Shown in pieces: positions 20,441 through 48,103 of a stretch of DNA of 64,000 bases (position 1 is its first letter; the number at the start of each line of letters is the position of its first letter). The translations under genes and the position numbers were made by a program. The notes below the pieces were generated by a model. It made no database searches. It was given only the letters and a program-made list of their open reading frames with translations, and was not told where the DNA came from. Source of the stretch: Watersipora subatra (Eukaryota); NCBI RefSeq assembly GCF_963576615.1, contig NC_088708.1, positions 42,797,115 through 42,861,114 of the forward strand. The letters are read 5' to 3'.

Positions 20441-20454
20441 CTGCAAAACAAGTA

Positions 20455-27343: not shown

Positions 27344-28744
27344 CTAAAACATTAACGACAAGGTTATGCGAATCCCAATAGACCATGTTCAAAACGCCCT
27401 AGCCAAATTAACTAACTAATCAATCAACTACTAAATTAAGGGTGCTTAAGGGTATAAACATGCTTATTAATTAATTAACGAGCTCACAATTAATTTATAT
27501 GAGCTGTTTTACTCAATGGCAATATGGCAAACACAATATGGCATGAAATTGTAAATGATGAACCATCTTATAAATACCGCAACAATTTTAACGAGGACAA
27601 TACGCTTTTAAACATGTTACATTATATTACAGGGTGATAACTGAATTTCAGACTAGATGCTTTCTTCACTGTTGGAACTCAAGCTAATGCCTTAATTTTA
27701 CTTTTATGCAGCATGTTATTAATCTAGAGCATTTGTGTGGGGAATATAACTCATTGTATGAAATATGGTTCGACCAATAACCATTTTTATTTCTATGCAG
27801 TGAACGACCAGCAAGACCCACCACTTTTTCACACTAAACTATCATTATAGAAACTACCACTTTGGAAAGTTGCATCTATTTTATGAAAAAAACATTCACT
27901 TTGTAAGAGCTAATAACTCCAAAACTGAATTTGGCCTGTGATGGTTGTAAAACCTGTCTATCAATCCAAGTGTTAAAATTGTTAAATCACTTCAGGTTTC
28001 TTAGGATTAAAAGTTACAAGGTAAAAAATAGTAAAAAAAACCTGATACAAATGTAAAAGTCATGAAAAGATTATATTGTCTTGAAAACAATTGAAATATT
28101 GTGATTAATGATTATTGTATCAAAACTAAAGAATGCCAACAACTGCTGTATATTGAGAGTATGCCGATTGCTGGACTTCATTTCAATAACACGCATTGCT
28201 TATAACTACAATAATTAGCCATCATTAAGGGCCACCCAAAAGTCCAGAGATAGCCTAGGTTTTCTGTGCTCTATTACTTGCTCTAAAGATAGGGAGAGAA
28301 GGTACAAATACTATGAAGACTATGATGTCAGGATGTTTTGGGCCAAAGATTACATTTAGCGGGAAAAACTTTTACGCTTTGCATTTGTGTTAAATGCTAG
28401 CATCAAAGTGTTGCTTTGCCAAAAAATTGTTTGGACGCTAACATCGACTAGTTCAGCAGTGCAAAAGTGTTGAGATCTAAAAACATTGTGGAAGGTATTG
28501 GACAACCAGAAGATGTTTGTTCCATCGAAAGCAACAATCACAACGCAGCTATCCAAGCAAATAATGCAAATATTTTTGTTTTACATACATTAATTTTTGT
28601 TTTTGCATGTATTATAAGTATGGTTCGTTTATGTCACCTGTTCATGAATATATATTTGTGGCATTTGATAAATTATCATTACATAACTTGTAAATTTGCA
28701 GACTTATAGTATACCAGATGAATGCCTAACGTTGCCTGAATAAC

Positions 28745-29310
28745 AAGTCTTTGCAAAAAAAATTTATTTTCATTTAACGTATAACAACAGTTACCATTCT
28801 AACTTTCCAACTCCATATCATGAGAAAAGTTTTTTGTGCAATTTGAATAAATTAGGAGAAAAGTAAAACAACTGTTAAGGTTTTTAAACATGGTCAAACA
28901 ACTGTAACTTTCCAACTTCATATCATGAGGGAAATGTTTGGTGCCTGTCAAATAAAGTAAAAAACAAAATGAAACAATTATAAAAGTGTTTAAATGTAAA
29001 TGTGAAATAATTAGCAAGTAATAGCAAAATTAAGTCTGTTTTGCTACGATTACAATAAAAAATGATTTGGTAATAATACAACCAATACGAACTGAGAGAA
29101 CAAAATAAAAATTCTGAATATGTTGAATTAATAATAACAGTTCGTGCATAGAAGTGTGTGTGTATAAAAAAGGTTACTGCTGCAGCATAAGCTATTCATC
29201 AATACTTTGAATACAACGATACTGGTACCTCTCGTTATGGGTACAAATGTACAAATGAGATATCGTAGTGTCTTTGTCTGGTATTTTGTCTGACCGAACA
29301 GAGACAGAAT
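28745..29310. repeat. Left copy of a ~500-bp dispersed repeat; it is inverted relative to the copy at 46630-47115 and contains an internal ~65-bp tandem duplication
   Basis: Its reverse complement matches 46640-47100 (cgttcggtcagacaaagacag...gtaccagtgtcgagaggtacc...). ORFs 29128-29355(-) and 46627-46923(+) encode the same peptide, which shows the identity. Confidence 0.6.
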
Positions 29311-29529
29311 GTAGAGGCTATTTCTACTCGATATAATAGAAGTGTAATGGCCCACTTGAAATTGAAATGGTACATTTAAAAATACAATTTAAAAAAATAG
29401 GTAATGGTAGCAAAAAACTAGTTTTTAAACAATTTCAAAAAATAACAAATGCAAAAGGTAATATTAGTTACTAATCAAAGGTGCACATTTAGTGTGTACT
29501 TTTTGGTATATGATAAGAGCGATAGAATG

Positions 29530-29615
29530 CCAAGGACTGTATTGCTCAGTGGTTAAATGCGTGGTTTGAAATTTACCATTGCAATCTCCGTGAGTTCAAA
29601 TCCAGCATGCAGGGA
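29530..29615 (+). repeat. tRNA-derived SINE-like segment, or a degenerate tRNA pseudogene
   Basis: It has an A-box-like TGCTCAGTGGTTAAATGCG and a B-box-like GAGTTCAAATCC. The stems do not pair as in a functional tRNA. Confidence 0.3.
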
Positions 29616-30111
29616 GCTATTCATTCTAAGGTTTTAACAGCTATAACTGGACAGGCAGAGATTTGAACAGACGACCAACTGAGATCTATATATATGTCTA
29701 TAGATTATTTGATAATCTGTATACGACCAAACCAAATCGTGATATACGGCCAAACCAAATCGTGATTAATGGCCAAACCAAATCGTGATATATCTATATC
29801 ACGACCAAACACTCGCCTCGCTCGTGTTTGTGATGGCATCATTGCAGTAATCTGATCTTACAATGGATCGACACTCGTAACTCCTCTTCTAATGCACTCA
29901 AAAAGCTAGTTTTGGCTGCAAACGTATTAATGAGTGCAATGAGCTTTTATGCAACATTGGTAAATAGAGACATAAAATAAAAATAAGTCTTCAAATTTAG
30001 AATGAAATAAAAATTGAAAGTTTCAACAAATTGCAAAGCAGGACACAGATTAATCATCGCAGGTTAATTGCAAGCTATAGATATCAACTGGTAGAGACAT
30101 TTCTCGGTTTA

Positions 30112-30117
<6 letters not shown>

Positions 30118-30162
<45 letters not shown>

Positions 30163-30440
30163 CTATATTTCCCAACTAGGAGGCTTCTATCAATATATAA
30201 TCCATGTTAGGAGGCTCTGAAAAATTAGGAGGCGTCCAGGGAGCCTCCTAATTCTAGCAGTGTTTATAGTGCTTACCAACCCTATAGAAGTATTTTAAAC
30301 ATGATTCCCATAATCGCCTTATATATCTATATTCATATATATGGAAAAGAGGAGACAACTCCAACAAAAATGTGTAATTTTCTATCAATAAATTATAAAC
30401 CCTAGGAGGCTCTTATATATGGAACTAGGAGGCATATCAA
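30118..30440. repeat. (TA)20 microsatellite followed by a cluster of CTAGGAGGC motifs
   Basis: (TA)n lies at 30118-30158. About eight TAGGAGGC motifs follow, up to 30440. The motif is the reverse complement of the satellite core GCCTCCTAA. Confidence 0.8.
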
Positions 30441-31954
30441 TTTTAAAACATTCTTACTTTTAACTGTTTTGGTATCGTTTCAGTTAATAGCACAATCTAT
30501 TTAAAAACATATTGCAATAAGTTTATGACTAAGCATCAGCAAATACAAAGAATTAGCAGCTATGTCGGATACAGTCAGTTTTGCTAATATTCATGATAGC
30601 TTTATTAGATTTGAGAAATAAAGTTGTATATTAACAAACTACAATACATTACAATTTATTTGCTGACCCTCTTTATAGTTTTCAAGACTGCCATTTAAGC
30701 ACTCCCTTTTTTGCAAGGTTTCTCATTGATCTGCTCTTTTTTGTGAAAATTCACAATAATTGCACATTATGGTTTCAACTGATGTTTAAGCATGGCTGTA
30801 GTAAAAGTTTAAATAAGTCTATAATCAGTACAATTCATATTTTCGATGCCGTTGCATCCAGCCACAAAATAAATATTTTTTTGAAACTTTGCATCCAAAC
30901 GCAATACCTGAGAGATGGTTTTTTAGTCGAAGAATTGATTTTTTAAATTTATTGAAGTAAAGTGGCAAAAGTATAACCACAGTATATAACAGCTAGAGAG
31001 ATGTGGCTGTTATAATGTTGCTGTGGCTGTTAGGACTATTAGTTCTTCACTCATGTAGTCTACTAGAGCTTGGTAGCAGCAGAATGACTACATGTAAGGG
31101 AGCAAGTCACATTCGGTAAGTTGTTCATGTTATTTTAGTCAATTTACAGTTTATTTACTTGAAACATACAGTTGTAGAAAAGCAGTATAAATTTTATTTA
31201 ATATTGAAATAGGACTAGCGTGAAAAAAGTATGTTTCAATTATTATAATTTTTAAGGAATGTAGCACAGAACACGTTTGATATATTTTTTACATCCGTTT
31301 ATGTCATCCAACTGCTGATATTGTTCTGCATAGAAAAGTCAAGAAAGGTCAGCATTATATTACCAAAAAGGAAAAAATCAAAACTTTTTGTAAAGTCCTA
31401 ATTTTTGACTTTATTATTGTTACACGAATGTTCAGTTTTGTAACATCAACACAGACACGCCAGCTGACAATTAATAGTTATTTTAGTGAATCAGTTAATT
31501 CTCCAACTTTAATCTATTTTCAGTTATTATTATTATAATTTTTGATGTTTTTTTATAATGATAAGTAACGTTATTAATGTGGTTCTACCAACAGTCAAAA
31601 CTGTTATTAGAATAACATGATCATAAAGTAATTGTATTATTGTTATCATGAATAGTGAGAGTTTGCGTATTTCAGTTATGATTTTGTAAGTAATAGTAGT
31701 ACATGCATAGGCATAAGCAAGTAAGTGGGTATATGCAGCCTTTGAATTTTGAAACTTTTAGTATTTAGTTTGAATCTTGTGTAGTAATTGTGTAGTAATT
31801 AAGAGCTTAGCTGTTTTATAGAGCTTCAGTAGTAGGAGGCAGACATTCAAGTTTGCCAAAAAAAACCTAACCAGTGAACTAAAATGTGTATTTTGCATTC
31901 ATTTTGGTTTGTATATCTGTTTATGCTACTTGAATTATCTTTTCATTTTTGTAG

Positions 31955-32041
31955 AAACTTGGTAAGCATTGTTGCCAAGATGGCATATTTATCAGATGGC
32001 AGAGAGTATTAGACAAAGTTGGATGTTCTTTTCTAGAAAAG
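31955..32041 (+). CDS. Diverged copy of the Tudor-like exon-like segment (KLGKHCCQDGIFIRWQRVLDKVGCSFLEK)
   Basis: The same acceptor and donor context (tttttgtag ... GTATGT) is present. It is 29 codons with no stop, but the Tudor signature is degraded. Confidence 0.2.
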
Positions 32042-35000
32042 GTATGTTGCTAATTACACGTTGGTTTGCATAAAAAATATGTCAAAATAATCAAGGTTTC
32101 ATCTACCGAAATTTATAATATTTTTTAACATATACATAATTATAGATTACAAACTATAAAACATTATATCAGTAAGGTTGTATTTTGAAATGTAGTAAAG
32201 TTTGACGTTTTGGCAAAGTCACTATGATAAGCAAAACTTTAAATTCACCAACACAAAATATACTGTACAAAGTTTTACTGTAACTAGCAAATGTATACCT
32301 GACGTAAGAATGTAACAGCATGCCCAAAAGTGGTTTTTCTTTGTATAGTTGCAAATAATCAATGACGCTTTAGTTATAGATAACTGCTGGATGAGAAGCA
32401 TTGATGGCCCACACCAAAGACTGATTTGCAGACATCAAATTAAAGGTATGCGATATTGCAATAAGTTGCTGTAAAATAGCACATTATACATGCGAGCCAA
32501 AAATTAGTGTAATAATTTGATATAGCCATAGCTTCAGTAAGAAAAGTTGTTAATTTTTACAGGCATTGTATTATTTAAACGCTTACATAAACCATTATGC
32601 CACTTTTGTGTTCTATTCATCTATTATTGGCAGATTACATAATATAAATAGCGCAAACCAATCAAAGGAATGTAGCATAGCAAAGAGATTTAGTATTGCT
32701 CTTCTTAGTCTTTATGAGTCATGGTTGCAATTGCTGAGCAATTGCATAATTATATAAAATGAATAGTTTTCCATGGTTACTCATTACCACTTTTAGTTAC
32801 TCAGTCAACACTGAGAGTAATTATCAGATTTGAGATATCATGTTTAGAGGCAGGAGATTGACAAATATTTTGTTGGTTTTTACTCTTACCCTACCGTATG
32901 CGAATTTATGCTAAATCTATCAGCAACTGCCGTATGCACATTTTTGCGAATTTTCCAACAATTGCGTGGTCACCTAATTTTATTATCCATTAAAAACATA
33001 ACGGATGATTTTAAAACTTTGATGGTATTGTCAGTGTGGTTCGAATATTTCTCTAATAGATTAGTCTAAGATAACCAAGCAGTTTCAAATTTTTTTTTGA
33101 GAATTTCCAAAATAAAAATGGACATTTTTTGTGTAAGTTTTGTTAAGTATCGCGCAAGTCAGAAAACATATAATTACTTACATGTATGTTGATGACACTA
33201 TAGTCAATTCAAATTCAGATTTTTGTGATTACACAGATAATTAAATTAGCAACAGTGACTCTGATGATAGTGAAAATAATAGTTTTTTAAGTGTAAGGGA
33301 CATTGTAGAGCATCCGTTTTAGCTTTGTAGCGATTGTAGCTTCACATAGCGTTAGCAATGCACAAAGTGAAGGTACATTGATTTTTGCATAGCACTATAT
33401 GTTAACATTTTAGCAAAATAAAATATATTACAAAAAGTTTATAGATAAACTTTGAAGTTGAAACAAAATAGTATACATGCTTCATGTACATATCATGAAG
33501 CTAAATTGGCAATTTTCGGTGAAATGGCTGGCGGTAGGCCGGTAGCTTAGTTTGTACATGGGTGGCAGTAAAAGGGTAAAGCTATAAAAGAATTAGAGAT
33601 ACAAGTGTATGTATTTCCTTTTAAATGATTTAGTGAACTTTGATGATTCAAGACAATGAGTTTGGCGAATGATATATATATATAAGATGCTGCTGAAGTT
33701 GCGCAATTCAACTCATGGCTTTTAATTATTACCTCAAAATGTTGAAAACACGCGATAGGAAGGGCCAGAACACTACTAAAACTCATAGTTACTCAAACCT
33801 GAAATACAGTAGGTTTTATACAAATTGCTGTACAATAACAAAACTGCAAAACTATTGGTTAAAATATAAATAGCAATATATATTATTATTTTTGGCCTTC
33901 GGTATCGGGCAGCATGTATGCAGTTTGTTTGCTGATGTTAACAAAAGTTTTACTAATAAGCTACATAATTTGCTCAATTATTTGTGTCAACTTTAAAATT
34001 TAAAACAAATGTAGTGTTAGCACTTTTAGGATATACTACAAACAACGCAGAGGAACTTTTTGTGGCATATGACTTGAATTTAAAAGTTCTCTGAAAATGC
34101 AACTTGTATTTGCCCATTTTAATACTTTAAAATGTCAAAGGGAGCTCATAATGAAAGCAACGTTAATATAATTTCAAGATGCTCAAATCGGTACGGATGT
34201 TATGTTGACAAACATTAAAAGGTCACTCTGTACTATGGCTAGTAAGTTTTTACATGTATTTAGATTTTGCATTGATGTTTTCAATTAGGTAGTGTAGGAA
34301 ATCTATTTACATTAGCTAAATTACCAGCATGTGCAATACCCAGCTTTGTTTCCTATCCATCCCAAACATTTTGCCAATGCTTATAATAATTCATTGCTCT
34401 TTTCAAATCTCATTTCTGAACCAAAGGTAGTTTTAGCAGTATAAGAACATATACTTCTCTTCCTATGGGTCTACTCACTTTTCTGTAGCAGCAAAGGCCA
34501 TTGTTTTTAAAAGGTCTGTAAGAATTGTATTACTTATTTTGACTTCCATTGGTGCTCGTAGCAAATATAATTTCAGTACAATTTGCATCAATAAAGTTAT
34601 TATTACTTGTTTGTAAAGTATTTGGAGCAAAACAATATTTTATGTGCACAGCAAACATTTTTGCTGCAAGCTTACCAAAACAAAATAAAACGTTTATTTT
34701 TATGTTACATTTTAATTAAACATCATGTTCTATTCAGTTATTGCTGTCAGTACTATGCAGTTATTGCTGTCAATGTTCTTTGTGCATTCTTGGCACACTT
34801 TTATGTTAAACTTCCAATGCATTAAACACTTTAGAAATAAAGTGTCCAAACAAGGATGCATAACATGAGATTTGTCACTGGCTTGTTTTGACCTATATCT
34901 AGCACTCTTTAGCCAAAGGTGTCTAGCTTTACTAAAATATTTGGTAGTGAAATTGTACATAAATTCATTGCCTGCATACACATCAATCATGATGCCTATG

Positions 35001-36135
35001 CTCTTATTATGTGTTCTACTATTGCCTGCTTAGCTAATTCACTTTCTACTTCTCAATAGCCTCAGCCTCCGAATGAAAGCTATTGTTGTTATTCCTATTC
35101 TTTGTAACTTTATAATGAAGGAGGTTGTGGTTGGGCAGCTCATTTGCTTTTCACTCTATTAGAAATATTGCAGCACAAGTATAACTGCAGTAATAAAATC
35201 TTCACAGAATTGCATAATGTGGTCTTATTCTCCAAGGTCTTCTCACTAGCAGAAATGACCTATGTACTTATGCAATTGTGGTTTGTGCTTAAAGTGACTC
35301 ATTCTCCTAATGTGGCATGGCTTTGCTATCTTCTTGCATGCTAGTCAATTGATTAAATAGATTGTAAGAAGCAAGCCAACCTCTCATTCCTACACAACCT
35401 AAAGACTTATCACATAAGTTCAACCTTCTAGCGAGATTGTAGCCGCTAAACATTTTGCTTTTTTCACGCGTCTAGCCATTCAGGGTTTTGCAGCAGCAGA
35501 AGAACAGACTAATCATGTCACAATTGGTATATTTGTTTGTCACAATTGTTTTATATTACTTTTGCCAATTTTGTCATTGAATTAATTGTACCATATTATG
35601 GTGAAAAGGCATCATGAAAAAGTATTTTACTTCGCCTCAATACCAATGCGAAAGGTTAGACCGGTAGTGGCCATTTTTGACCTTTAGGGCGAGCCACTTT
35701 AAATACTATATCTAAGCAACTTACTCATGTCATCAAATTGCGACGGCAAACAACAATGCATAGGTTTTCGCAGCTAATTTGGATTTGGATTTTACTGCCT
35801 TAATTGCAAGATCGTAATATTGTCAAGTTAAAAAGGTCAAGAAACCCCAACTTTATAATGCTAAAAGAATGAAATTATTACTAATTTTCATAAAATGATA
35901 ACTTTGTAATTATACACAAGGGTAGCTTTGTGAGATTAACCGACACACATTAAAATAGTTATGGTAACATATAGCTCAGTAGCCAGCAATTGATGAATAT
36001 CTGTGACTCTGTCGATGCTCCTAACTTTTGTAACTTTTTAAAAAGCATTAAAATAATTATGGATGCTTTTTATTCTGATTAGTAGTGTTAGCTGATTGAT
36101 AGCACCAAACAGGCAGAATTATTAGTAGCCTATAC

Positions 36136-37280
36136 TATACTGCCCTGAGCAAGCAAAACGCTGTATCTTGATATTTGTAAATTGTTCAGCACAAGCACAA
36201 ACGCGTTTTGGTCAAGCCTGGCATCAGTATTAGCAGTATTTTAGTTGTTTTTTTTTATTTATTATGGTGAGATATCCAACAATTTTTACTGAATTTTTTT
36301 TTCGTGAAACTTTAAAATCAAAGGAGTTATTTCACTTAGGGCATTTTGTTTGCTTAAATTGACAATTTACTAAGCTGGCACTAGGCAATCAAAACGCCCT
36401 ATCACTGCAGATAGGGCCTTTTGATTGCTTAATTGGACTGGTTTCTCATTGTTAGTTTGCCACAAGACCATTTGCCATGACTGGATTATCAAAGGATTAC
36501 AAGTTTAAATTCTGATATTAACCCGCAATTAGTCAACAAAATGATATATGTTGCAATTCCTATTACTCATCCAGTCAACACATGGATTAAAACCCTGTAA
36601 TAGCCATATTTAGCTCAAAAGTTAAGAGATGATCAAAGATCTAGGTATCCTTCAAACCAGATGTCATGAAATGAAAGGAATAAGTAAAATAGTAGTTTAA
36701 AAAAGATCAAACGCTTTTATTAAAAATAATTTAAAGCAAACAACTGAGTGCAATAATTTCAGTATTTTAAAAAAGCAAAACCTTCCAATGGACATGTAAT
36801 TAAAACAAATTTTTCATCAAATCTCTGAGTCGGATCTTTAAATCGAGACTTTTGTCACTTAGATATCGTCTTGTCATAATAAATATATTATGATAAAAAA
36901 TATAGCAATAAGATTGAGCACTTAGAAGTGCACTAGCTTGTATGAGCTGCCTTGAAACAACCAAATATATATGCTTCAGTTTCGCTTCCCTTTGTTTATA
37001 TACTCTTTGATTACATAATGCTTTTCATAATGTCAAACTTTGTGTATGTTCAGGCCAATCAAAACGCTGTATCTGCAAATAGAGCGCTTTGATTGCCACT
37101 TTATGTGTGGTAAATGTGGATAGGGCGTTTTGCACATTGTGAAATGTGCTATTTCTGGTGGTCTCAGATATATGAAATTTTGAGACATGTTAGATCTCAA
37201 CCTAAATTACATTGAAGCACAAAAAAGTAAATCTTGAAAAACTTGTCAGATAGGGCGTTTTGCTTGCTTAGGGCAGTATA
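36136..37280. mobile_element. MITE-like element (~1.15 kb) with ~26-bp terminal inverted repeats and internal perfect palindromes
   Basis: The left end TATACTGCCCTGAGCAAGCAAAACGC matches the reverse complement of the right end TATACTGCCCTAAGCAAGCAAAACGC at 25 of 26. There are internal hairpins at caatcaaaacgccctatcactgcagatagggccttttgattg (36379-36420) and caatcaaaacgctgtatctgcaaatagagcgctttgattg (~37055-37095). Confidence 0.5.
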
Positions 37281-37611
37281 AAGTTGTGATAATGTATTAT
37301 TTTCATTGTAATTAACAAGTTGATGCATTTTAGTCGTAATTTGATACGGATTTAAACTAGAGGCTGAGTCATAAGTAAGTGACTGGAGTAAATGAAATCC
37401 TTTAAATTGTTGAAGCTTTAAAATCTATGTTTCAATTTTGTAGAAGAATATCGCAAGAGATAAAATATTACTGCTTCATAGAATTTTAGTAATGGGAGGT
37501 AGGGACACGGGTTTGCTGAAAAACCTAAAAACAACAGGCATCTTTTGCATCACTTTTTAATCTGCATAACATCTGTTTGGGCTATTAAAATTGTTTTGCT
37601 TATTTTGGTAG

Positions 37612-37692
37612 AAACCTGGTCACCGCATCCAAGCACTATATCCACCAGATGGAAAATGGTACGAAGCACAGCTGGACGCTTTCTTGAAGGGG
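37612..37692 (+). CDS. Exon-like segment encoding a Tudor-domain-core-like peptide (KPGHRIQALYPPDGKWYEAQLDAFLKG)
   Basis: It lies between a ttttggtag acceptor and a GTATGT donor, 27 codons with no stop. The peptide fits the Tudor signature [C/I]-A-x-Y-x-x-D-G-x-W-Y-[R/E]-A. A diverged copy lies at 31955-32041. Confidence 0.3.
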
Positions 37693-40342
37693 GTATGTTG
37701 CTGATTAACGGTTAGTTTCCACAAGAGCGTGCCACATTAATAAAAGTTTTATTTCAAAAAATTTATAAGAAATAATATTACTATAAAATCTATGTTTGAA
37801 TGCCATGGCACTGCATTTTTTAACCCTTCCAATTATAGTGGCAAAAATTGTCGATTGTGCTTCATAATATATGTTCAATCTTTATTAGCTTCAACTCTAT
37901 CTAAAACCTTTTTGTTATAGATTTTATTTTTCCAACACGTTAAAAAATAGTACTATTCAAAAAACTTAATGCATTCCTACTTCGTGCATTGCTAATGCTA
38001 TGTGAAGCTACGATCCCTTCAAATCTCAAAAAACAATGCTCTACCATGTTCCTTACTCTTACAAAAACTATTACTTTGACCACCATTGGAGTCACTATTG
38101 GAGCTGCTACTTTAATTATATGTGTAATCACTAAAATCTTAATCCGTCAGTCATCAACAATCATCAATAATGTTATCAACATAAGTAATTATCTGTTTTC
38201 AATTCTGGATGTACTTGCGAAAGCTATAATAGCACTAAATATTTCAAAAATCAGAAAGAACAAATGTTTCTTTTTATGTTGAAAAGTCCTAAACAAAAAT
38301 TTAAAATTGCTTCGTGAGTTTAGGGTAATTTTACAGGGAAACTTTTGGACAACACTGTCAATACCCTAAAAAGTCTTAAAGACTGTTAGTTATGTTGTCA
38401 ACGAATAATAAAATTAAGTTACTACGCAATTGCCAGGAAATTCGCAACATGCACATATGCCGGTCGTCCATTGATTTCGCCTAAATGCGCATGCAGCGGT
38501 GAAAGGGTTAATAAAATATTATGTAATCTCTAATTGAATCCCCATTCATTTAAACGCCCCTCTACTAGACCTGTACTATAATAGATGACGGTTAAAGATA
38601 GAACGCCGCCGTTCAAGTGAACGTTACTTCTTTTGAAAAAAACACATAAAAAACTATATAACACACAAACTAAGCTGTGATTCAGTGATAACATATACAC
38701 TGGGCGCTGAGCTTGCAAAATGCCATCGTTAACTGCTTATTCTAATGCTGTAGCATGTGCAAGAAATTTTAGCCTCAAATAGTAGTACAGATTTCATCAT
38801 ATTTGCTAAACCGTTTTTTCATATATGCCGAACTATCAAGGCCGCTTAAACAATAAAATTATTATCAGCCTGATAGAGTTATTAATTATTTCCACGGTGC
38901 TGCTTTCAAAGCTTTAACGAAAACACTGTAAAGCTTAGAAGTTAGAAAACTCGCTTCAATATGCATTGACAAAAGTATTAATTGCTATTGTTGTAACTGA
39001 GTCATTGTTAGTAAAAATTTGTCAACATTTTTCTATCCATCCTGTCCAAAATCGGATCCAAAGATCAAAGAATGTTGAAGTCGCAGTCAGCTGGATGTGG
39101 TTGTCAATTAAAGGGTGACACTCTAGTTTTCAACACTTCTAGAATAGCACTCGAATGAACATGGCCTTCAAATTAAGATTCTACCTTATGTCAATTTAGC
39201 TGTATTTCAGAATGTTATAATATTGGAGTTTTGGGTCAAGGTTAAAATAGCAAGCATAACTTTGCAAATATTGACGCAACAAGATTTTAGTTTTAAATAA
39301 GGCTCTGCTTTCATATATTTGCAAATCACTAATGCATGAATTTAAAAAAAGAACCCAAGGGTATATTTCTCTTTGTGTAGTAGCATCTAATCGAAAATGC
39401 ATTGATTTTAAATAAGTGCAGAGTGACATACATGGATTATCAACACCGAAGAGTGATTTTCAGACATCAGATTAAATGTGGGTGATGCTATGATAAGTGG
39501 CTTTAAACTAACACAATGTACTAGGGAACCAAGCGTGATTATTTTGCTGTAGCTCAAATGCAGTATAAAAAATAAAGGTGTCTAACTTTTCAAGTATTTC
39601 AGTCAAATTCGTTGCCTACATAAATGCTGACACTAGTCTTTGTGTTCTGCTGCTGTCAGGTTACAAAACATAGCTCTCCTAGTCAGAGGCATTTAGGTAT
39701 CTAGAGCAATCTAGGCATTAGTGGTTTCAATGAACACCTGAACAATGGTGTTTAACCACATTGCTTGACCCCATAGGTCAAGTATTAGCCTAATTAATGA
39801 CTCAATAAATAGCTACCCAGTCAGGTCACACTAAGCTTAGCAGCAATCGTTCTGAACACTGGCCATTGAGACTGCTCAATGAATGTTAATCCTGATCATT
39901 TCTCTAATAATTTGAAGCAAATAGAAATCCAAACTGCTCTATCGCATGCATGCAAGTGGCACACCATTTAGTTTCATAATTAGCTACTAAAGTAGTATAT
40001 AGAAGTGGTCATCAAAATACCTTCTACAGTATATGTGTGTTTTGAATAACAATACATTGGTTAAGTATTATATTACTAAATGAGAAATGACACTAACGAG
40101 CATTAATGTCCTTATTGTTCACTTGTATCTTAGAAACCATCAATTCTGTTTTGACTTGCAGCACGTAAACCAGCTTATTTAACTTTTGAATGGAGCTGAG
40201 CAATGATATGTGATTCATCAAAGCCATAGCTTATCAGATTTTTATAAATGATAATTCACATTATTTACTATTTCAGTCAGCAGAAAACGGTAAAGTGCAG
40301 AGGAAATAGCAGAATTTGACAAGTACTGGACTGAAAAATCAG

Positions 40343-40467
40343 GCAAACTGCCAACAAGATCAGTGTTGGATGCTAAACACTCAACGCTGCCTAACAGAAG
40401 TGTTACAGTGATTCGGGCTCGAGCCAACAACTTGCTAAAGAAGGCTGCGAGAAAAAATGCCAGCTGA
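40343..40467 (+). CDS. Putative terminal coding exon of an unannotated plus-strand gene (…GKLPTRSVLDAKHSTLPNRSVTVIRARANNLLKKAARKNAS*)
   Basis: An AG acceptor lies at 40341-40342 and the ORF runs to TGA at 40465-40467. An AATAAA lies at 40516-40521, ~50 nt downstream. A paralogous unit at 41691-41871 keeps the same reading frame. Confidence 0.35.
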
Positions 40468-41690
40468 ATTTTTTATGTTGTTGAACCTTCTTATTATCAT
40501 TGCGTTGTATTTGTCAATAAATGTGCTCTTTTTGAAGACTAAAAGAGACCAACTCCGCAGTAATGCACTTGTATAGTTATTTTGTATCAAGCAGTCTTAG
40601 CTATTATTTTATGTACAGAAAATGTGCATAAAACAATGACTATGATAGATAATACAATACCGACAATAGATATTATCTGTTGTACTGCACTGTACACTAT
40701 GATGTATTATTCAAGAAACAAGCTCTAAGATAAATTATAATAATTCTTTTAAAGAAAAACTAAATATAAGGAAATATGCCGCAGCAGCCAGTCTACTGAC
40801 AACTTACTGTCAAACCGACAAGCCCAAAAAATTACTTAGAACGCTGTGCTTGACTAAAAACAATCAGAAATTCACTACACAATGAGAAATATATCTTTTT
40901 GGGTCATTTTCCAAATTTAAGTGAATGTGTCTGAGTAGAATGTTCTATCAATTTCTTGACAGTTCAGGGCATTATTATTACTGGTAAAATGTGAATAATA
41001 GCACTCAGTATTACTATTGATCAATAAAACCACCCAAAGTCAAGAGATCTAAAGTTAGAAAAAATTTGGTACTGTGCTGGGTCCAGCCCGACTGATCATT
41101 GCTAACAATAAATTGCAGTAAGAAAGAAGTTTTGAAAAGCGAAAATGCCCTCAAGATAGAATGTTATTGTATTTTTATTGGCTCTCTATGTGACATTAAG
41201 TTTTTCCCTGGGTTCTACATAGGCACAATGGGCTTGTTTGGAATCTACCCAATTTATGGTGCTGTGGTATTGCGCAGGTTTTGCAACCTGACACTCCATT
41301 CCCGAGTGGGGAAATGTTTTTACTTAACGTTCTAAGAGTGGCTTAAGATGAATAGAAAGACATTGCTGTTATTGTATGTTAGATTGAGTAACTAAGTATG
41401 TTGTGCAAGTAATTCATATTATTACTGTAGATAATATGCACAGCAAGCAAAAATGTGTGTGTTTCATTTTAGCAATCACAGTAACTGAGTTGCGTCCATG
41501 CATTGTTACCAACTAATTTTTTTTAAGTTTTTGTATGCAGTGCAGCAGCGATATGTGACTGAATAAGAAACTATAACATAGACCATATTTACAAATATTG
41601 AGTTACATTATTCGTTTATATTAGTGAGCAGAAAGTTATGCAGCCTAAAAGAAAATTGAGAGTTCAAAAAGCCATGATTGGAAGATTGAG

Positions 41691-41803
41691 GCAAACTACC
41701 AAAAATGCCAGAGCTGTATACTGTTAAAAGAAATTGGTGTTTGAAAATTATAATGATGACTTATGCCCGAGCCCACAACTTACTCAAGAAGCTGCAAAAT
41801 TAA
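41691..41803 (+). CDS. Paralogous putative terminal exon (GKLPKMPELYTVKRNWCLKIIMMTYARAHNLLKKLQN*)
   Basis: An AG acceptor lies at 41689-41690 and the stop TAA at 41801-41803. An AATAAA lies at 41866-41871. The exon and its upstream ~70 nt are similar to the 40343 unit. Confidence 0.35.
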
Positions 41804-42069
41804 ACTGGCAGCAGGGTCTTCTTGTTGTTGAGGCTTTTGTAATATCGCATTAAACTTGACGTCTGAATAAATTTACTCCGTTTGGTGACTAAGCAACGAC
41901 CATTCTATGGTACTTGACTAGTTGAATTTTTTAGTATCAAGCATGGTGGCTGTTGTTGTTTTAAATACAAATTTATTGATTCCTACGTTAAAGTTTAACA
42001 TACTATACAATATGTAGGTTCTAACAACAATTATTGTTGTTTTATACAGATTGTTGTTTTATTGTACAG

Positions 42070-45000
42070 ATTATAGCAGACTCTTAGTTGATCTATAAGT
42101 GATAGCAACATCCCAAATTATATGTAAGCCATGGCACCTCTGCATTGATATGTAAGTTATAGCAACCTCCTAAATGATATATAAATAACAGCAGCTTCCT
42201 AATTACTATATAATTCATTGCAGCCTCCTAACTGATATATAAATAGTAGCTACCAACTATATAAAATTCAAATTATAGTAAACTCTTTTGTGATCTATAA
42301 GTCATAGCAACATCCTAAATTCTATGTAACCCATAGCAACCACTGCAATGATATGTAAGTTATAGCAACCTCCTAAATGATATATAAATAGCAGCAGCCA
42401 CCTAGTTAATATATAATTCATAGCAGTCTCCTAACTGATATATAAATAGTACTGTAGCTACCAACTATATGAAATTCAAATTATAGCAAACTCTCAGGCG
42501 ATCTATAAGTGATAGCAGCATCCTAAATTATATGTAACCCATAGCAGCCTCTGCAATGATATGGAAGTTATAGAAACCTCTTAAATGATATATAAATAGC
42601 AGCAGCCTCCTAATTAATATATAATTCATTGCAGCCTCCTAACTGATATATAAATAGTAGCTACCAACTATATGAAATTCAAATTATAGTAAACTCTTAT
42701 GTGATCTATAAGTCATAGCAGCATCCTAAATTCTATGTAACTCATAGCAACCTCTGCAATGATATGTAAGTTATCGCAACCTCCTAAATGATGTAAAAAT
42801 AGCAGCAGCCTCCTAATTTATATATAATTCATTGCAGCCTACTAAATGATATATAGATAATATCTATCAACTATGGAAAATTCAAATTATAGCAAGGTCT
42901 TAGGTGATCTATAAGTGATAGCAACATCCTAAATTATATGTAACCCATAGCAGCCTCTGCAATGATATGTAAGTTATAGCAACCTCCTAATTGATATATG
43001 AATAGCAGCAGCCTCCTAATTAATATATAATTCATAGCAGCCTCTTAACTGATATATAAATAGTAGCTACCAACTATATGAAATTCAAATTGTAGTAAAC
43101 TCTTATGTGATCTATAAGTCATAGCAACATCCCAAATTATGTGTAACACATGGCACCTCTGCAATGATATGTGAGTTATAGCAACCTCTTAACTGATATA
43201 TAAATAGTACTGTAGCTACCAACTATATGAAATTCAAATTATAGCAGACTCTTAGTTGATCTATAAGTGATAGCAACATCCCAAATTATGTGTAACACAT
43301 GGCACCTCTGCAATGATATGTGAGTTATAGCAACCTCTTAAATGATATATAAATAGCACCAGCTTTCTAAGTAATATATAATTCATTGCAGCCTCCTAAC
43401 TGATATATAAATAGTAGCTACCAACTATATGAAATTCAAATTGTAGTAAACTCTTATGTGATCTATAAGTCATAGCAACATCCTAAATTCTATGTAACTC
43501 ATAGCAACCTCTGCAATGATATGTAAGATATAGCAACCTCCTAAATGATATATAAATATCAGCAGCCTCCTAATTAATATATAATCCATAGCAGCCTCCT
43601 AACTGATATATAAATAATAGCTATCAACTATGGAAAATCCAAATTATAGCAAGGTCTTAGGTGATCTATAAGTGACAGCATCATCCTAAATCATATGTAA
43701 CTCATACCAGCCTCTGCAATGATATGTAAGTTATAGCAACCTCCTAAATGATATATAAATAGCAGCAGCCTCCTAATTAATATATAATTCATAGCAGCCT
43801 ACTAACTGATATATAAATAACTGCTATCAACTATGGAAAATTCAAATTATAGCAAGGTCTTAGGTGATCTAAAAGTCATAGCAACATCCTAAATTCTATG
43901 TAACCCATAGCGACCTCTGCAATAATATGTAAGTTATAGCAACCTCCTAAATGATATATAAATAGCAGCAGCCTCCTAATTAATATATAATTCATAGCAG
44001 CCTCCTAACTGATATATAAATAATAGCTATAAACTATGAAAATTCAAATTATAGCAAGGTCTTAGGTGATCTATAAGTGATAGCAACATCCTAAATTCTA
44101 TGTAACCCATAGCAACCTCTGCAATGATATGTAAGTTCTAGCAACCTCCTAAACAATATATAAATATCAGCAGCCTCCTAATTAATATATAATTCATAGC
44201 AGCCTCCTAACTGATATATAAATAATAGCTATAAACTATGAAAATTCAAATTATAGCAAGGTCTTAGGTGATCTATAAGTGATAGCATCATCCTAAATTA
44301 TATGTAACTTATAGCAGCCTCTGCAATGATATGTAAGTTATAGCAACCTCCTAAATGATATATAAATATCAGCAGCCTCCTAATTAATATGTAATTCATA
44401 GCAGTCTCCTAACTGATATAGAAATAATAGCTATCAACGATGGAAAATTCAAAATATAGCAAGGTCTTAGGTGATGTATAAGTGATAGCATCATCCTAAA
44501 TTATATGAAACTCATAGCAGCCTTTGCAATGATATGTAAGTTATAGCAACCTCCTAAATGATATATAAATATCAGCAGCCTCCTAATTAATATATAATCC
44601 ATTGCACCCTCCTAACTGATATATAAATAATTGCTATCAACTATGGAAAATTCAAATTATAGCAAGGTCTTAGGTGATCTATAAGTGATAGCATCATCCT
44701 AAATTATATGTAACTTATAGCAGCCTCTGCAATGATATGTAAGTTATAGCAACCTCCTAAATGATATATAAATATCAGCAGCCTCCTAATTAATATGTAA
44801 TTCATAGCAGTCTCCTAACTGATATAGAAATAATAGCTATCAACGATGGAAAATTCAAAATATAGCAAGGTCTTAGGTGATCTATAAGTGATAGCATCAT
44901 CCTAAATTATATGAAACTCATAGCAGCCTTTGCAATGATATGTAAGTTATAGCAACCTCCTAAATGATATATAAATATCAGCAGCCTCCTAATTAATATA

Positions 45001-45830
45001 TAATCCATTGCACCCTCCTAACTGATATATAAATAATTGCTATCAACTATGGAAAATTCAAATTATAGCAAGGTCTTAGGTGATCTATAAGTGATAGCAT
45101 CATCCTAAATTATATGTAACTTATAGCAGCCTCTGCAATGATATGTAAGTTATAGCAACCTCCTAAATGATATATAAATATCAGCAGCCTCCTAATTAAT
45201 ATGTAATTCATAGCAGTCTCCTAACTGATATAGAAATAATAGCTATCAACGATGGAAAATTCAAAATATAGCAAGGTCTTAGGTGATCTATAAGTGATAG
45301 CATCATCCTAAATTATATGAAACTCATAGCAGCCTCTGCAATGATATGTAAGTTATAGCAACCTCCTAAATGATATATAAATATCAGCAGCCTCCTAATT
45401 AATATATAATCCATTGCACCCTCCTAACTGATATATAAATAATAGCTATCAACTATGGAAAATTCAAATTATAGCAAGGTCTTAGGTGATCTATAAGTGA
45501 TAGCATCATCCTAAATTATATGTAACTCATCGCAGCCTCTGCAATGATATGTAAGTTATAGCAACCTCCTAAATGATATGTAAGTTATAGCAACCTCCTA
45601 AATGATATATAAATATCAGCTGCCTCCTAATTAATATATAATCCATAGCAGCCTCCTAACTGATATATAGATAATTGCTACCAACTATGTGAAATTCAAA
45701 TTATATCAATTTCTCAAATGATCTATAAGTTATAGCAACATACTTTATTATATGTAAATCAGAGCAGCTTCTAAAAGAAACAAGTTATAGCAAACTCCTA
45801 AATGATATAAGTTACGGCATCTTACTAAAG
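42070..45830. repeat. Satellite array with a ~203-bp monomer (202-208 bp), ~18 copies, degenerate at the 3' edge; it contains three ~40-bp subrepeats built around GCAGCCTCCTAA
   Basis: The anchor gatctataagt recurs at 42090, 42292, 42500, 42703, 42905 and onward. The variants agtGatagc and agtCatagc alternate, which suggests a ~405-bp higher-order unit. The array lies inside the BTBD terminal intron. Confidence 0.9.
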
Positions 45831-46129
45831 GGTATGTAAGCTATGCCATGCTATGTAATGTTTCCATTGTAACTATTACATAAGTTACAATGGTAACATT
45901 CTAATTTATGTGTAATTTGTAGCAATCTGCTAACTGGTAATCATTATTTTTGCTTACTCATTGAGGTATGAATTATTTTACCTTCAAATTGATATGTAAT
46001 TTACAACAACCATCTAGACATTCTCCAAGTTTTGACAGTTTTTCTAGTATGCATATATACAAAGTATGATAAGGCGATGAATATATATTGTATGATACCA
46101 TATTCTCTTAAAATTTCCATAAAAATATA

Positions 46130-46291
46130 TAATAATTAGGAGGTGAATAAATATATATATATATCTACAATGTAGATAAATTAGACCATATAGGAGGCTT
46201 ACCCATATATATTTGCGTTAACTCCTAATCCCTTATATTCCGCAACCTCCTAACTGGTATATATTTATTCAACTCCTAACTCGGAAATATG

Positions 46292-46325
<34 letters not shown>
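46130..46325. repeat. Cluster of CCTCCTAA and TAGGAGG motifs followed by a (TA)15 microsatellite, a mirror image of 30118-30440
   Basis: The motifs lie at 46130-46290 and (TA)n at 46296-46325. Confidence 0.8.
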
Positions 46326-46326
<1 letters not shown>

Positions 46327-46629
46327 TTCTCAAAGTTCGTCTTCTGTTCTTCGGTATGTCCAGCTATAGCTATTAAAATTTTGGAATTGAAATTTCGCAA
46401 TCTGCTGCACTTGAACTCACGAAGATTGCAACCGCAGTTTTGCAATAAAATTCTCTAACCATGAGACCGCGAAAGCTCTTACAATTCATCGCTCCTACAC
46501 CCAAAATAACGCACTATTTGAAACGCCATGCATTCTACTAACTCTATGAAACATGATGCTTTTTTGCTTTTTTTTATCGTGAACTTCTAATTCCGGTTTT
46601 TCGTGAAGTTCAATTACTGAATCGCGGTG

Positions 46630-47115
46630 AAGGTCAATACTTTTTATGCGAACAATTCGTTCGGTCAGACAAAGACAGTCCGATATCCCATTTTTACATT
46701 TGTACCAGTGTCGAGAGGTACCAGTGTCGTCGTAGTCAAAGCTTTGATGGATAGCTTATGCTGGAACAGTAACTTTTTATACACACACACTTCTATGCAA
46801 GAATTGTTATTATTAATTCAACATATTCAGGATTTTTATTTTGTTTTCTCAGTTCGTATTAATTGTACATATCATTACCAAATCAGCTTTTATTGTAATC
46901 GTAGCAAAACAGACTTAATTTAGCAATTACTTGCTAATTATTTCACATTTACATCGAAACTCTTTTATAGTTGTTTTATTTTGTTTCTTAACTTATTTGC
47001 CCTGCACAAAACATTTCCCTCATGATATGAAGATTAAAAGTTACAGTTGTTTGACAAAGTTAGAAAACCTTCACAGTTGTTACAAATAAATTTTCTGTGC
47101 AGACTTTTTTATTAC
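46630..47115. repeat. Right copy of the ~500-bp dispersed repeat, inverted relative to 28745-29310
   Basis: See the left copy. The two copies bracket ~17.3 kb that includes the 203-bp satellite. Confidence 0.6.
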
Positions 47116-47329
47116 CAAGGCAATGCTGGGTAGTACAGCAATGCTGGGTAGTACAGCTAGTCAATCCAAATTTATTAAGACATTTCTGACAAGCTGGAGG
47201 TAAGTTAACAGATTTAATGCATCCAAAAGGTTTAATATCGCTCCACCGAAAAAGGAGGACAAAATATAGGCAACATTCACGTCGCCCGTAAAAGGGTTAG
47301 AATTATCTTCCCAAAATTCTGAAAAGCCA

Positions 47330-47460
47330 TTTGAAAAATACAACGCCATTCTCTATTCGAACGCCAGTCTCTATTTGAACGTCACCTCCAACTGACCGCC
47401 ACTATGGAAAGGTTGAAAAATAGAGCGCCGTGGCATTTAATTAGAGGTTTTACCGTAAGT
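47330..47460. repeat. Second copy of the dispersed repeat seen at 6650-6800
   Basis: It matches 6650-6800 in reverse complement. Confidence 0.4.
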
Positions 47461-48103
47461 TAAATCTATAGTTTATGTTAGGTTACATAGCATAGCGTCA
47501 TAAAAGAGTAGCGTACCAAACGTGTTGCTGTCAAGTCGCTCTATCACAGTCGATAACCGCAACCATCTGCCTTGAAGGAAAGAATTCCGCACCGCACATA
47601 ATAATGTTCCATTGTATTGCAAATCATAACCACTAGATAGATATTTGTTAGTTTGGTGAACTAGAACAATTAAAAATACGTTTTCCATCATAAGACCTTG
47701 TTTTTAAACAGCTTTTTAGAGGATGGGAACGGATTAATTTGTATTTAGATATTTTTTAAAGGAAAAATTGATTTGAGCTATGAGAGAATTGATGTACAAG
47801 CACGGTCCCGGAACACCTTAAGCTTGTATGTCGGGGTATGACTGTATACAACTTTTTTAAAAATGGGATTCTAGTCAAAGATTTTTAATAAACAGAGTGG
47901 AGGTCACAAAATAAAGGTAATCTATGACAGAAGCGAGTTAAGTGGCACTTACATGCTTATTTTGATGATGCTAAAGAATATAATACCCTCTACTATCAAG
48001 AAAAATTACATTAGTTATTTAAAAGAAATTAAAATACTGTTTTCCAATTGCCTGCTATCACTAAACTTTAGCTAATAGAACATGTCAAAAGAGATATACA
48101 GAC

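What the first reader, a model, noticed from the sequence alone, without database searches (positions are those of the whole stretch)
40250..41900. Two tandem paralogous 'terminal exon plus AATAAA' units antisense inside the BTBD intron, preserving a reading frame despite strong nucleotide divergence
Both units have an AG acceptor, ~40 codons ending …SGKLP…[Y/I]ARA[H/N]NLLKK…*, and then an AATAAA ~50-60 nt after the stop (40516 and 41866). Similarity extends ~70 nt upstream of the acceptor and ~100 nt past the polyA signal. The conserved frame and C-terminal motif across copies that are only ~65-70% identical suggest the units are, or recently were, coding. They could be alternative or duplicated 3' ends of an unannotated nested gene, possibly the same one as the Tudor-like exon-like segments at 31955 and 37612.
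Basis: inference. Interest (0 to 1): 0.55.

Follow-up and report, generated by a model that had tools for sequence, protein, structure and literature searches.

The report
Decayed duplicate last exons, orphan gene
The two units are real, very old duplicates of the last exon (with poly-A signal) of a small, unannotated Myb/SANT-like gene family seen so far only in bryozoan-like DNA. Both copies carry stop codons inside the conserved exon, so this is most likely an ordinary gene relic in a greatly expanded intron.

Summary
The window comes from Watersipora subatra chromosome 1. The finding lies antisense in the 20.76-kb last intron of a BTBD1-like gene.

Both units are true homologues. An HMM built only from five foreign homologues scores unit A at 82 bits and unit B at 24.5 bits, against at most 7 bits for shuffles, and finds nothing else in the window. 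The homologues are single-exon ORFs on short marine metagenome contigs. They share the same acceptor position and phase, and the stop follows the domain. The domain is a roughly 55-aa three-helix fold, weakly Myb/SANT-like.

The claim of a preserved frame is only partly true:
- In unit A the codon of the conserved first Trp is TAA, five codons after the acceptor. All three frames stop within 14 codons, leaving 57 clean codons stranded.
- Unit B has three in-frame TGA codons and keeps only 7 of 12 invariant residues.
- A versus B shows no codon-level constraint: pN 0.40, pS 0.53, flat codon-position identity, and coding sequence no more conserved than its flanks.

The orthologous intron in a related species is 136 nt and empty, so the block is a lineage-specific insertion.

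Verdict: non-processed pseudogene relics, with unit A inactivated only recently. Interest is low.

The parts
40175..40600 (+). Unit A. It comprises the 3' end of an intron, the terminal exon, the 3' UTR, the poly-A signal and about 70 nt downstream, all homologous to unit B.
   Evidence: blastn blocks and MAFFT alignment.
40275..40276 (+). Canonical AG acceptor of unit A, preceded by the pyrimidine tract ttatttactatttc. Its position and phase are the same as in the foreign homologues.
   Evidence: Sequence, compared with L001, L003, L004 and L006.
40277..40467 (+). Exon A, homologous to the family's Myb/SANT-like domain exon. It reads (x)SRKR-TAA-SAEEIAEFDKYWTEKSGKLPTRSVLDAKHSTLPNRSVTVIRARANNLLKKAARKNAS-TGA.
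   Evidence: It scores 82.1 bits against an HMM of the foreign homologues, and 75.5 bits in the six-frame scan. phmmer against 1.84 billion proteins gives four hits, best E=1.4e-8.
40291..40293 (+). In-frame TAA at the position of the family's conserved first Trp, five codons after the acceptor. The other two frames also stop within 14 codons.
   Evidence: Translation, alignments A3 and A6, and a direct read.
40299..40300 (+). A weak alternative AG acceptor (gtgcAG) 24 nt downstream, in the same phase. It would skip the TAA but lose the first 8 codons. It is preceded by a purine-rich tract.
   Evidence: Direct read. Its use is inference only.
40516..40521 (+). AATAAA of unit A, 48 nt after the TGA stop.
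   Evidence: It aligns with the AATAAA of unit B. L001 has an AATAAA about 55 nt after its stop.
41519..41943 (+). Unit B, the decayed paralogue of unit A.
41625..41803 (+). Exon B (acceptor AG at 41623-41624). It reads (x)SRKLCSLKEN*EFKKP*LED*GKLPKMPELYTVKRNWCLKIIMMTYARAHNLLKKLQN*. There are TGA codons at 41657-59, 41675-77 (the second conserved Trp) and 41687-89. Seven of 12 invariant residues are kept.
   Evidence: It scores 24.5 bits against the HMM of foreign homologues.
41866..41871 (+). AATAAA of unit B, 62 nt after the TAA stop.
37612..37692 (+). T2 exon-like segment. The sequence is tag|KPGHRIQALYPPDGKWYEAQLDAFLKG|gtatgt, 27 codons, phase 0 at both ends. It is a possible upstream exon of the same relic gene.
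   Evidence: It is duplicated as T1, with block 31709-32118 matching 37367-37768 at 66%.
39384..39477 (+). X2 exon-like segment. The sequence is tag|HLIENALILNKCRVTYMDYQHRRVIFRHQIK+T|gtgggt. Its donor is in phase 1, which matches the phase-1 acceptor of unit A.
   Evidence: Block 32334-32500 matches 39366-39532 at 71%.
31955..32041 (+). T1, the decayed copy of T2. In the homologous frame it has a frameshift and two stops (…AYLSDGREY*TKLDVLF*K).
32349..32445 (+). X1, the copy of X2. It is still open in the homologous frame (LQIINDALVIDNCWMRSIDGPHQRLICRHQIK+G|gtatgc).
27344..48103 (-). The last intron of the host BTBD1-like gene (20,760 nt), which contains everything listed above. The orthologous intron in a related species is 136 nt.
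30100..47170 (.). A 17.07-kb block holding all the relics, a 3.7-kb satellite and an inverted 1.1-kb repeat copy. It interrupts an older dispersed repeat that is contiguous at 6744-7602.

Best explanation
**What the units are**
Units A and B are DNA-level duplicates that keep their intron ends, so they are not retrocopies. Each holds the last exon, 3' UTR and poly-A signal of a small gene. That gene encodes a roughly 55-residue three-helix, Myb/SANT-like domain with the consensus RKxW(T)xEExxxFxKxWxxxSGKLPxxxxLxxxxxxLPxRSxxxLRARASNLLR. The family is unannotated. It is known here only from five single-exon ORFs on short marine metagenome contigs, and these are probably bryozoan DNA.

**How they got here**
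In Watersipora subatra the copies lie on the plus strand, inside a 17-kb lineage-specific block. That block inflated the last intron of the minus-strand BTBD1-like gene from about 0.1 kb to 20.8 kb. The block also holds two copies each of two upstream exon-like segments (T and X), a satellite and dispersed repeats. The picture is a patchwork of old segmental duplications of one intron-bearing gene, followed by decay.

**Current state (inferred: both non-coding)**
- Unit B died long ago. It has three TGA codons and has lost five of the 12 invariant residues.
- Unit A was kept under protein-level selection until recently. It has 12 of 12 invariant residues and no indel in 57 codons.
- Unit A now has TAA at the conserved first Trp, five codons past its only good acceptor. 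Any transcript spliced there would end translation before the domain.

**Effect on the host gene (from established poly-A signal biology)**
The AATAAA signals are on the strand opposite to BTBD and would not affect the host mRNA.

**Shown versus inferred**
- Shown: homology, exon structure, disabling codons, lack of codon-level constraint between the copies, and the lineage-specific size of the intron.
- Inferred: the order of duplication events, absence of expression, and the bryozoan origin of the homologues.
For: **Family membership of both units**
- An HMM built from foreign sequences alone scores A at 82.1 bits and B at 24.5 bits. Shuffles reach at most 7.0 and 5.2 bits. The six-frame scan finds only these two sites.
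- The exhaustive phmmer search gives four hits, E from 1.4e-8 to 4.3e-6, all 61-79 aa. The profile search returns these four plus P0005, all from metagenome sources.

**Same gene architecture in the homologues**
- The acceptor directly precedes xx-(A/C)GA-AAA-xxx-TGG in the same phase. The stop follows the domain, and small upstream exons with GT or GC donors are present.

**Disabling codons**
-.

**No codon-level constraint between A and B**
- pN is 0.40 and pS 0.53. From GKLP to the stop, pN is 0.425 and pS 0.388.
- Codon-position identities are 0.59, 0.57 and 0.54.
- The coding sequence is 57% identical and the flanks 53-67%. My chi-square on the counts gives about 3.9 with 3 df, which is not significant.

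**Lineage-specific insertion**
- BTBD exon 1 is 100% identical to the W. subatra RefSeq BTBD1-like protein.
- The orthologous intron is 136 nt in L007-L009, and those loci hold no SANT or T/X match.
- The 17-kb block interrupts a repeat that is contiguous elsewhere in the window.

**Co-duplication of upstream exon-like segments**
- They are duplicated at similar divergence and their splice phases chain.

**Not annotated**
- The unit A peptide finds no candidate among 5.8 billion proteins, although the W. subatra RefSeq BTBD protein is in that collection.

**Domain fold**
- AF2 predicts three helices with mean pLDDT 77.
- hhalign against a Myb/SANT alignment gives P=4.8e-4 over the full domain.
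Against: - Unit A is remarkably clean apart from one codon, so it may still be in use or may be a haplotype-specific null allele.
- There are no gaps in 191 nt of aligned exon, against five gap events in about 235 nt of flank. My Poisson estimate is P about 0.02. This suggests both copies kept their frame for some time after duplication.
- X1 and X2 are both still open and differ mostly by conservative replacements.
- Expression could not be tested.
- Copy number in the whole genome could not be tested. A functional parent copy, or a repeat family, is therefore not excluded.
Confidence: 0.65

Rival explanations
1. Unit A is still the working last exon of an unannotated nested gene, and unit B is a dead spare copy. 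The TAA would be avoided in one of three ways. The in-phase acceptor 24 nt downstream (AG at 40299-40300) could be used. The assembled haplotype could carry a null allele. Or, much less likely, the codon is recoded.
For: - Unit A keeps 12 of 12 invariant residues and has 57 codons with no stop or indel.
- It is 42-53% identical to the foreign homologues, as close as they are to each other.
- The alternative acceptor is exactly 24 nt downstream, so the phase is kept.
- Unit A has a poly-A signal at the same distance after the stop as L001 does.
- T2 and X2 are open and phase-compatible.
Against: - The canonical acceptor is strong, while the alternative one follows a purine-rich tract.
- X2's donor leaves a T, and T+AG gives TAG at the alternative acceptor.
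- Skipping would remove the conserved RKxW start of the domain.
- The open frame holds no ATG.
- No annotated protein contains the peptide.
Confidence: 0.2
2. The units are the 3' ends of a repetitive mobile element, or gene fragments carried around by one, present in many copies in the genome.
For: - The units lie in a 17-kb insertion block full of repeats and next to a satellite.
- Inverted 1.1-kb repeats sit near the block edges.
- Two paralogous family members occur in one metagenome sample: P0001 and P0003 in ERZ23499014.
Against: - Only two adjacent copies exist in the 64 kb.
- In 15 billion proteins the family has five clusters, each with 1-3 member sequences and on 1-2 contigs. Transposon proteins normally recur in large numbers.
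- No transposase, RT or integrase domain is present.
- The intron position is conserved among homologues only 31-53% identical, which is typical of a cellular gene.
- No terminal repeats or target-site duplications bound the units.
Confidence: 0.1
3. The similarity between the two units, and the open frames, are chance in AT-rich intron sequence.
For: - Overall identity is 57%, against 53 +/- 2% for random intron pairs.
- A 57-codon ORF is not rare at 34% GC.
- AATAAA is expected about once per 0.8 kb per strand (my estimate from base composition).
Against: - Both units match an HMM built from unrelated foreign sequences (82 and 24.5 bits; shuffles reach at most 7).
- The blastn blocks are collinear, with E=1.7e-5.
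- The acceptors and AATAAA signals lie at aligned positions.
Confidence: 0.01

Closest known systems
Non-processed (duplicated) pseudogenes or decayed exon duplicates nested in introns
   Same: - They arose by DNA-level duplication and keep their intron ends, acceptor and poly-A signal.
- They are homologous to a conserved coding family.
- They carry premature stops.
- Codon divergence between the copies looks neutral.
- They lie antisense inside a host-gene intron.
   Different: - Unit A carries a single lesion and is otherwise perfectly conserved.
- No parent gene is annotated.
- The upstream exon-like segments are duplicated in a non-tandem order (T1, X1, T2, X2, A, B).
Myb/SANT-like DNA-binding or histone-tail-binding domains (Pfam PF00249), e.g. 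the ZZZ3 Myb-like domain, PDB 2yum
   Same: - The domain is about 50-55 residues with three predicted helices.
- It opens with W-[ST]-x-E-E.
- LPxR[ST] precedes helix 3.
- The third helix is basic.
- hhalign aligns the full domain (P=4.8e-4).
- The top Foldseek hit is the ZZZ3 Myb-like domain.
   Different: - It scores 11-12 bits against the Pfam cut-off of 24.4.
- All Foldseek E-values exceed 0.5, and homeodomains fit equally well.
- The third conserved Trp is replaced (RASNLL).
- The insert between helices 1 and 2 (xxSGKLP) is specific to this family.
Tandem alternative terminal exons / alternative polyadenylation units
   Same: Two consecutive units on one strand, each made of acceptor, coding tail, stop and AATAAA.
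   Different: Neither unit is open from its acceptor. Unit B is degenerate. No transcript evidence exists.

Membership tests
Small Myb/SANT-like orphan family (P0001-P0005; defined here) | Significant sequence match to a profile built from the other members | tested here: met
   Unit A scores 82.1 bits and unit B 24.5 bits. Shuffles reach at most 7.0 and 5.2 bits. phmmer E=1.4e-8 against 1.84 billion proteins.
Small Myb/SANT-like orphan family (P0001-P0005; defined here) | Terminal exon with a phase-1 acceptor just before (N/S)RKxW, and the stop soon after the domain | tested here: met
   The acceptor position and phase are the same in A, B, L001, L003, L004 and L006.
Small Myb/SANT-like orphan family (P0001-P0005; defined here) | Uninterrupted reading frame through the domain (that is, a functional member) | tested here: not met
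   Unit A has TAA at the conserved Trp. Unit B has three TGA codons.
Myb/SANT domain (Pfam PF00249) | Score at or above the Pfam gathering threshold | tested here: not met
   The best scores are 11-11.8 bits (E 0.28-0.48) against a cut-off of 24.4, for three of six sequences.
Myb/SANT domain (Pfam PF00249) | Three-helix homeodomain-like fold with a profile-level match | tested here: inconclusive
   AF2 predicts helices at 11-20, 31-40 and 46-66, with pLDDT 77. The Foldseek top hit is the ZZZ3 Myb-like domain at E=0.55, and homeodomains reach TM 0.6-0.67.
Non-processed pseudogene | Homology to a coding exon, with intron and splice structure retained | tested here: met
   plus the acceptor comparison.
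Non-processed pseudogene | Disabling mutations and no codon-level constraint | tested here: met
   The stops are shown. pN is 0.40 against pS 0.53, and codon-position identity is flat. This test cannot separate the A lineage from the B lineage.
Non-processed pseudogene | No productive transcript or protein | not testable with these tools
   This needs RNA-seq from PRJEB62167 (paper PMC12902671).
Transposable element 3' end | Many dispersed copies | tested here: inconclusive
   Only two adjacent copies exist in the 64 kb. The family is very rare in the protein collections. The whole genome is not searchable here.
Transposable element 3' end | Element-type protein domains or terminal repeats | tested here: not met
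   Pfam finds no transposase or RT domains. No TIR, LTR or TSD bounds the units.
   Pfam gives no hit. The PDB phmmer best hits are a GAS7 domain at E=0.65 and the TDRD3 Tudor at E about 1, each over 26 residues only. Single-sequence AF2 gives one long helix, which is uninformative.

The most novel reading that the evidence does not exclude
Unit A would be the live 3' exon of an unannotated, bryozoan-restricted gene for a small Myb/SANT-like protein, perhaps joined to the T2/X2 exons, nested antisense in BTBD1-like. The TAA would be bypassed by the in-phase acceptor 24 nt downstream, or would be a heterozygous null allele. Unit B would be a decayed former alternative terminal exon.
Probability: 0.15. 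Interest if true: 0.35.

Novelty: new member of a known kind. Interest (0 to 1): 0.15.

Why it matters
The finding matters little beyond annotation.
- It documents a small Myb/SANT-like protein family that is absent from annotated proteomes. Only five clusters appear among 15 billion proteins, all on metagenome contigs that probably derive from bryozoans.
- It shows how one W. subatra intron grew about 150-fold by insertion of gene relics, satellite DNA and repeats.
- It is a caution that a conserved-looking tail peptide followed by AATAAA can be a recently dead exon.

If unit A proved to be expressed, it would add one lineage-restricted nested gene to the bryozoan catalogue.

Tried and rejected
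**Homologue searches**
- A word-indexed protein search with the 57-aa peptide found no candidate.
- Two metagenome-contig scans with family alignments found nothing.

**Domain and structure searches**
- Pfam on the unit peptides gave only noise: Pet127, Pec_lyase_N and EF-hand_15, all below cut-off.
- A PDB sequence profile search gave nothing relevant.
- The 'Tudor-like' reading of the T/X segments has no support from Pfam, PDB or AF2.

**Context look-ups**
- Looking up the genomic context of the W. subatra BTBD protein failed because the gene is not on record.
- The minus-strand gene call on L001 is spurious. It has five stops in the standard code.

**Scans of the whole intron**
- Rfam and tRNA scans found nothing.
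- No other plus-strand ORF of 45 codons or more looked protein-like by eye; none was searched against any library.

**Readings rejected**
- Chance similarity is rejected by the HMM test.
- A retrocopy is rejected because the intron ends and acceptors are retained.
- Functional tandem alternative terminal exons are rejected because neither unit is open from its acceptor.
- A-to-I recoding of UAA to UGG was considered. It needs two edits and nothing supports it.
Full report
**Source and context**

The 424-codon minus-strand ORF at 55077-56351 is 100% identical to the NCBI protein 'BTB/POZ domain-containing protein 1-like [Watersipora subatra]' (612 aa). That protein lies on a 79,350,317-bp record. 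This equals the longest scaffold of assembly tzWatSuba1.1, GCA_963576615.1 (PMC12902671).

tblastn with BTBD C-terminal probes places the remaining exons on the minus strand at about 53120-53308, 49005-49118, 48104-48253 and 27188-27343. The splice sites were read directly: CTCAAG|gtctgt at 48104, and ttttag|GGACCC at 27343. The last intron is therefore 27344-48103, or 20,760 nt.

**Checking the observation**

The two units are real.
- blastn of unit A against the window finds unit B as two collinear blocks: 40417-40593 vs 41765-41943 (68% over 184 nt, E=1.7e-5) and 40175-40286 vs 41519-41634 (67% over 116 nt). No other copy is found.
- The acceptors (AG at 40275-76 and 41623-24) and the AATAAA hexamers (40516-21 and 41866-71) lie at aligned positions.

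Over the whole 600-nt MAFFT alignment, identity is 57%. Random 600-nt intron pairs aligned in the same way give 53 +/- 2%.

**What the exon encodes**

The word-indexed search found nothing. An exhaustive phmmer run of the 57-aa peptide against 1.84 billion representative proteins gave four hits with E from 1.4e-8 to 4.3e-6. All are 61-79 aa. A profile search returned these four and added P0005, a close variant of P0003. All come from ENA, JGI or Logan metagenome contigs of 0.5-1.9 kb.

The consensus is RKxW(T)xEExxxFxKxWxxxSGKLPxxxxLxxxxxxLPxRSxxxLRARASNLLR.

On those contigs the ORF is clearly a terminal exon of an intron-bearing eukaryotic gene.
- It begins right after a pyrimidine tract and an AG, in the same phase as in the window: ag|GT AAC AGA AAA GCT TGG in L003, ag|AT AAC AGA AAA AAG TGG in L006, ag|GT AGA AAA AGA TGG in L004, and ag|TA CGA AAA CGT TGG in L001.
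- The stop follows the domain. L001 has an AATAAA about 55 nt later.
- Small upstream exons with GT or GC donors are visible.
- Conceptual splicing in L001 gives an 88-aa protein (my reading).

The domain fold is weakly Myb/SANT-like.
- AF2 on the six-sequence alignment predicts three helices with mean pLDDT 77.
- The best Foldseek matches are the ZZZ3 Myb-like domain and homeodomains, but all have E>0.5.
- Pfam Myb_DNA-binding reaches only 11-12 bits against a cut-off of 24.4.

I therefore call it Myb/SANT-like. Membership of PF00249 is not established.

**State of the two copies**

An HMM built only from the five foreign sequences scores unit A at 82.1 bits and unit B at 24.5 bits. Five hundred shuffles of each reach at most 7.0 and 5.2 bits. 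A six-frame scan of the whole window finds only 40276-40467 and 41618-41803. Both units therefore descend from this coding exon.

The exon is 63 codons long, and neither copy is open across it.

Unit A:
- It reads ag|TC AGC AGA AAA CGG TAA AGT GCA GAG..., so the codon of the conserved first Trp is TAA (40291-93).
- The other two frames stop after 10 and 13 codons (my reading).
- After the TAA come 57 clean codons that keep all 12 family-invariant residues.

Unit B:
- It has TGA at 41657, at 41675 (the second conserved Trp) and at 41687.
- It has lost five of the 12 invariant residues.
- It ends five codons earlier than unit A.

- Nei-Gojobori pN is 0.40 and pS 0.53 overall. From GKLP to the stop, pN is 0.425 and pS 0.388.
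- Identity by codon position is 0.59, 0.57 and 0.54.
- The coding sequence (57%) is no better conserved than the intron end (67%), the 3' UTR (53%) or the downstream flank (60%). My chi-square on those counts is about 3.9 with 3 df.

One hint of past constraint remains. There are no gaps in 191 exon columns, against five gap events in about 235 flank columns. My Poisson estimate is P about 0.02.

Unit B has TGC where unit A has TAA. An ancestral Tyr codon (TAC) would make each a single step. This is inference.

**Surroundings**

Other plus-strand pieces are duplicated at similar divergence.
- T1 (31709-32118) matches T2 (37367-37768) at 66%.
- X1 (32334-32500) matches X2 (39366-39532) at 71%.
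- A 0.6-kb repeat lies in opposite orientations at 32898-33457 and 37889-38492.

T2 (37612-37692) and X2 (39384-39477) are open. Their phases chain into unit A: phase 0, then 0 to 1, then 1. T1 is broken in the homologous frame, while X1 is still open. The order T1, X1, T2, X2, A, B fits one gene copy lying inside the last intron of another. It also fits two separate duplications. I could not distinguish these.

'Tudor-like' is unsupported. In the foreign contigs, the exons just upstream of the domain exon are different short exons. The link between T/X and A/B is therefore plausible but unproven.

**Origin by insertion**

A related species is represented by metagenome loci L007-L009. Its last two BTBD exons are 86% and 98% identical in protein to those in the window. 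Its orthologous last intron is only 136 nt (ACTAAAG|gtttgc ... gacag|GGACCA), and the 17-18 kb loci L007-L008 contain no match to the family or to T/X.

Within the window, a dispersed repeat that is contiguous at 6744-7602 is collinear with three intron pieces: 47352-47171, 30099-29836 and 28713-28389. The intron copy therefore carries a 17.07-kb block (30100-47170) and a 1.12-kb block. The 17-kb block holds all the relics and a 3.7-kb satellite at 42070-45809 (29-nt subunit, 203-nt higher-order unit). It also holds one copy of a 1.1-kb repeat, whose inverted partner is the 1.12-kb block.

Rfam and tRNA scans of the intron are empty.

The closest BTBD orthologue (P0007, 69%) and a family member (P0005) occur in the same metagenome sample. 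This suggests that the homologues are bryozoan DNA.

**Interpretation**

- Best explanation (0.65): non-processed pseudogene relics of a lineage-restricted small Myb/SANT-like gene. They were carried into, or duplicated within, an expanding intron. Unit B is long dead, and unit A was inactivated recently by a nonsense codon.
- Rival (0.2): unit A is still used, either through the weak in-phase acceptor 24 nt downstream (40299-40300) or because the TAA is an allele of the assembled haplotype. Against this, X2's donor leaves a T, giving TAG at that acceptor. The acceptor context is also purine-rich, and no annotated protein contains the peptide.
- Rival (0.1): part of a multi-copy mobile element. 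The rarity of the family, the conserved intron position and the lack of element features argue against it. The whole genome could not be searched, so it is not excluded.
- Chance similarity is excluded.

**Novelty and score**

This is a new, unannotated member of well-known kinds: a decayed duplicated exon, and a Myb/SANT-like orphan family. It would not surprise a specialist. Interest is 0.15.

Noticed in passing
window 27344-48103 vs L007 13429-13564: The last intron of the BTBD1-like gene is 20,760 nt here. It is 136 nt in the closest metagenome-derived relative, a roughly 150-fold lineage-specific expansion.
   Followed up: yes
window 6744-7602 vs 47352-47171, 30099-29836, 28713-28389: A dispersed repeat that is contiguous at 6.7-7.6 kb is split inside the intron by a 17.07-kb block and a 1.12-kb block. 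This gives an 'empty-site' comparison for the nested insertions.
   Followed up: partly
window 28867-29280 (+29579-29705) and 47081-46666 (+46431-46307): Two inverted copies of a 1.1-kb repeat (87% over 418 nt) lie near the edges of the insertion block. The second segment holds a B-box-like GAGTTCAAATCC stretch, but ARAGORN calls no tRNA.
   Followed up: partly
window 42070-45809: A 3.7-kb satellite starts about 125 nt after unit B. It has a 29-nt subunit and a 203-nt higher-order repeat (87-92% matches).
   Followed up: partly
window 32898-33457 and 38492-37889: A 0.6-kb repeat occurs in opposite orientations (71%), one copy after X1 and one between T2 and X2. It is probably an independent small mobile element.
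   Followed up: no
window 23431-25575 (- strand): A broken hAT-type transposase relic. zf-BED scores 18.5 bits and the hAT dimerisation domain 20.8 bits, both just under the Pfam cut-offs. The ORF is split into at least five pieces.
   Followed up: partly
window 20246-20605 (- strand): An exon-like ORF with ankyrin repeats (Ank_2, 37.6 bits). It belongs to a neighbouring gene downstream of BTBD1-like.
   Followed up: no
window 8226-8880: A 21-nt tandem array is open in several frames on both strands, for example (GTIPTYV)n. This produces spurious 176-216-aa ORFs.
   Followed up: no
window 49259-49958 and 50535-51245: An 80%-identical direct duplication of about 0.7 kb inside another BTBD intron.
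   Followed up: no
L002/L003 (ERZ23499014, ERZ23498713) and L006: One metagenome study (WANG22-1, SAMN08714533) holds two family members about 52% identical to each other. It also holds the closest BTBD orthologue (P0007, 69%), so there is substantial bryozoan-like DNA in those samples.
   Followed up: partly
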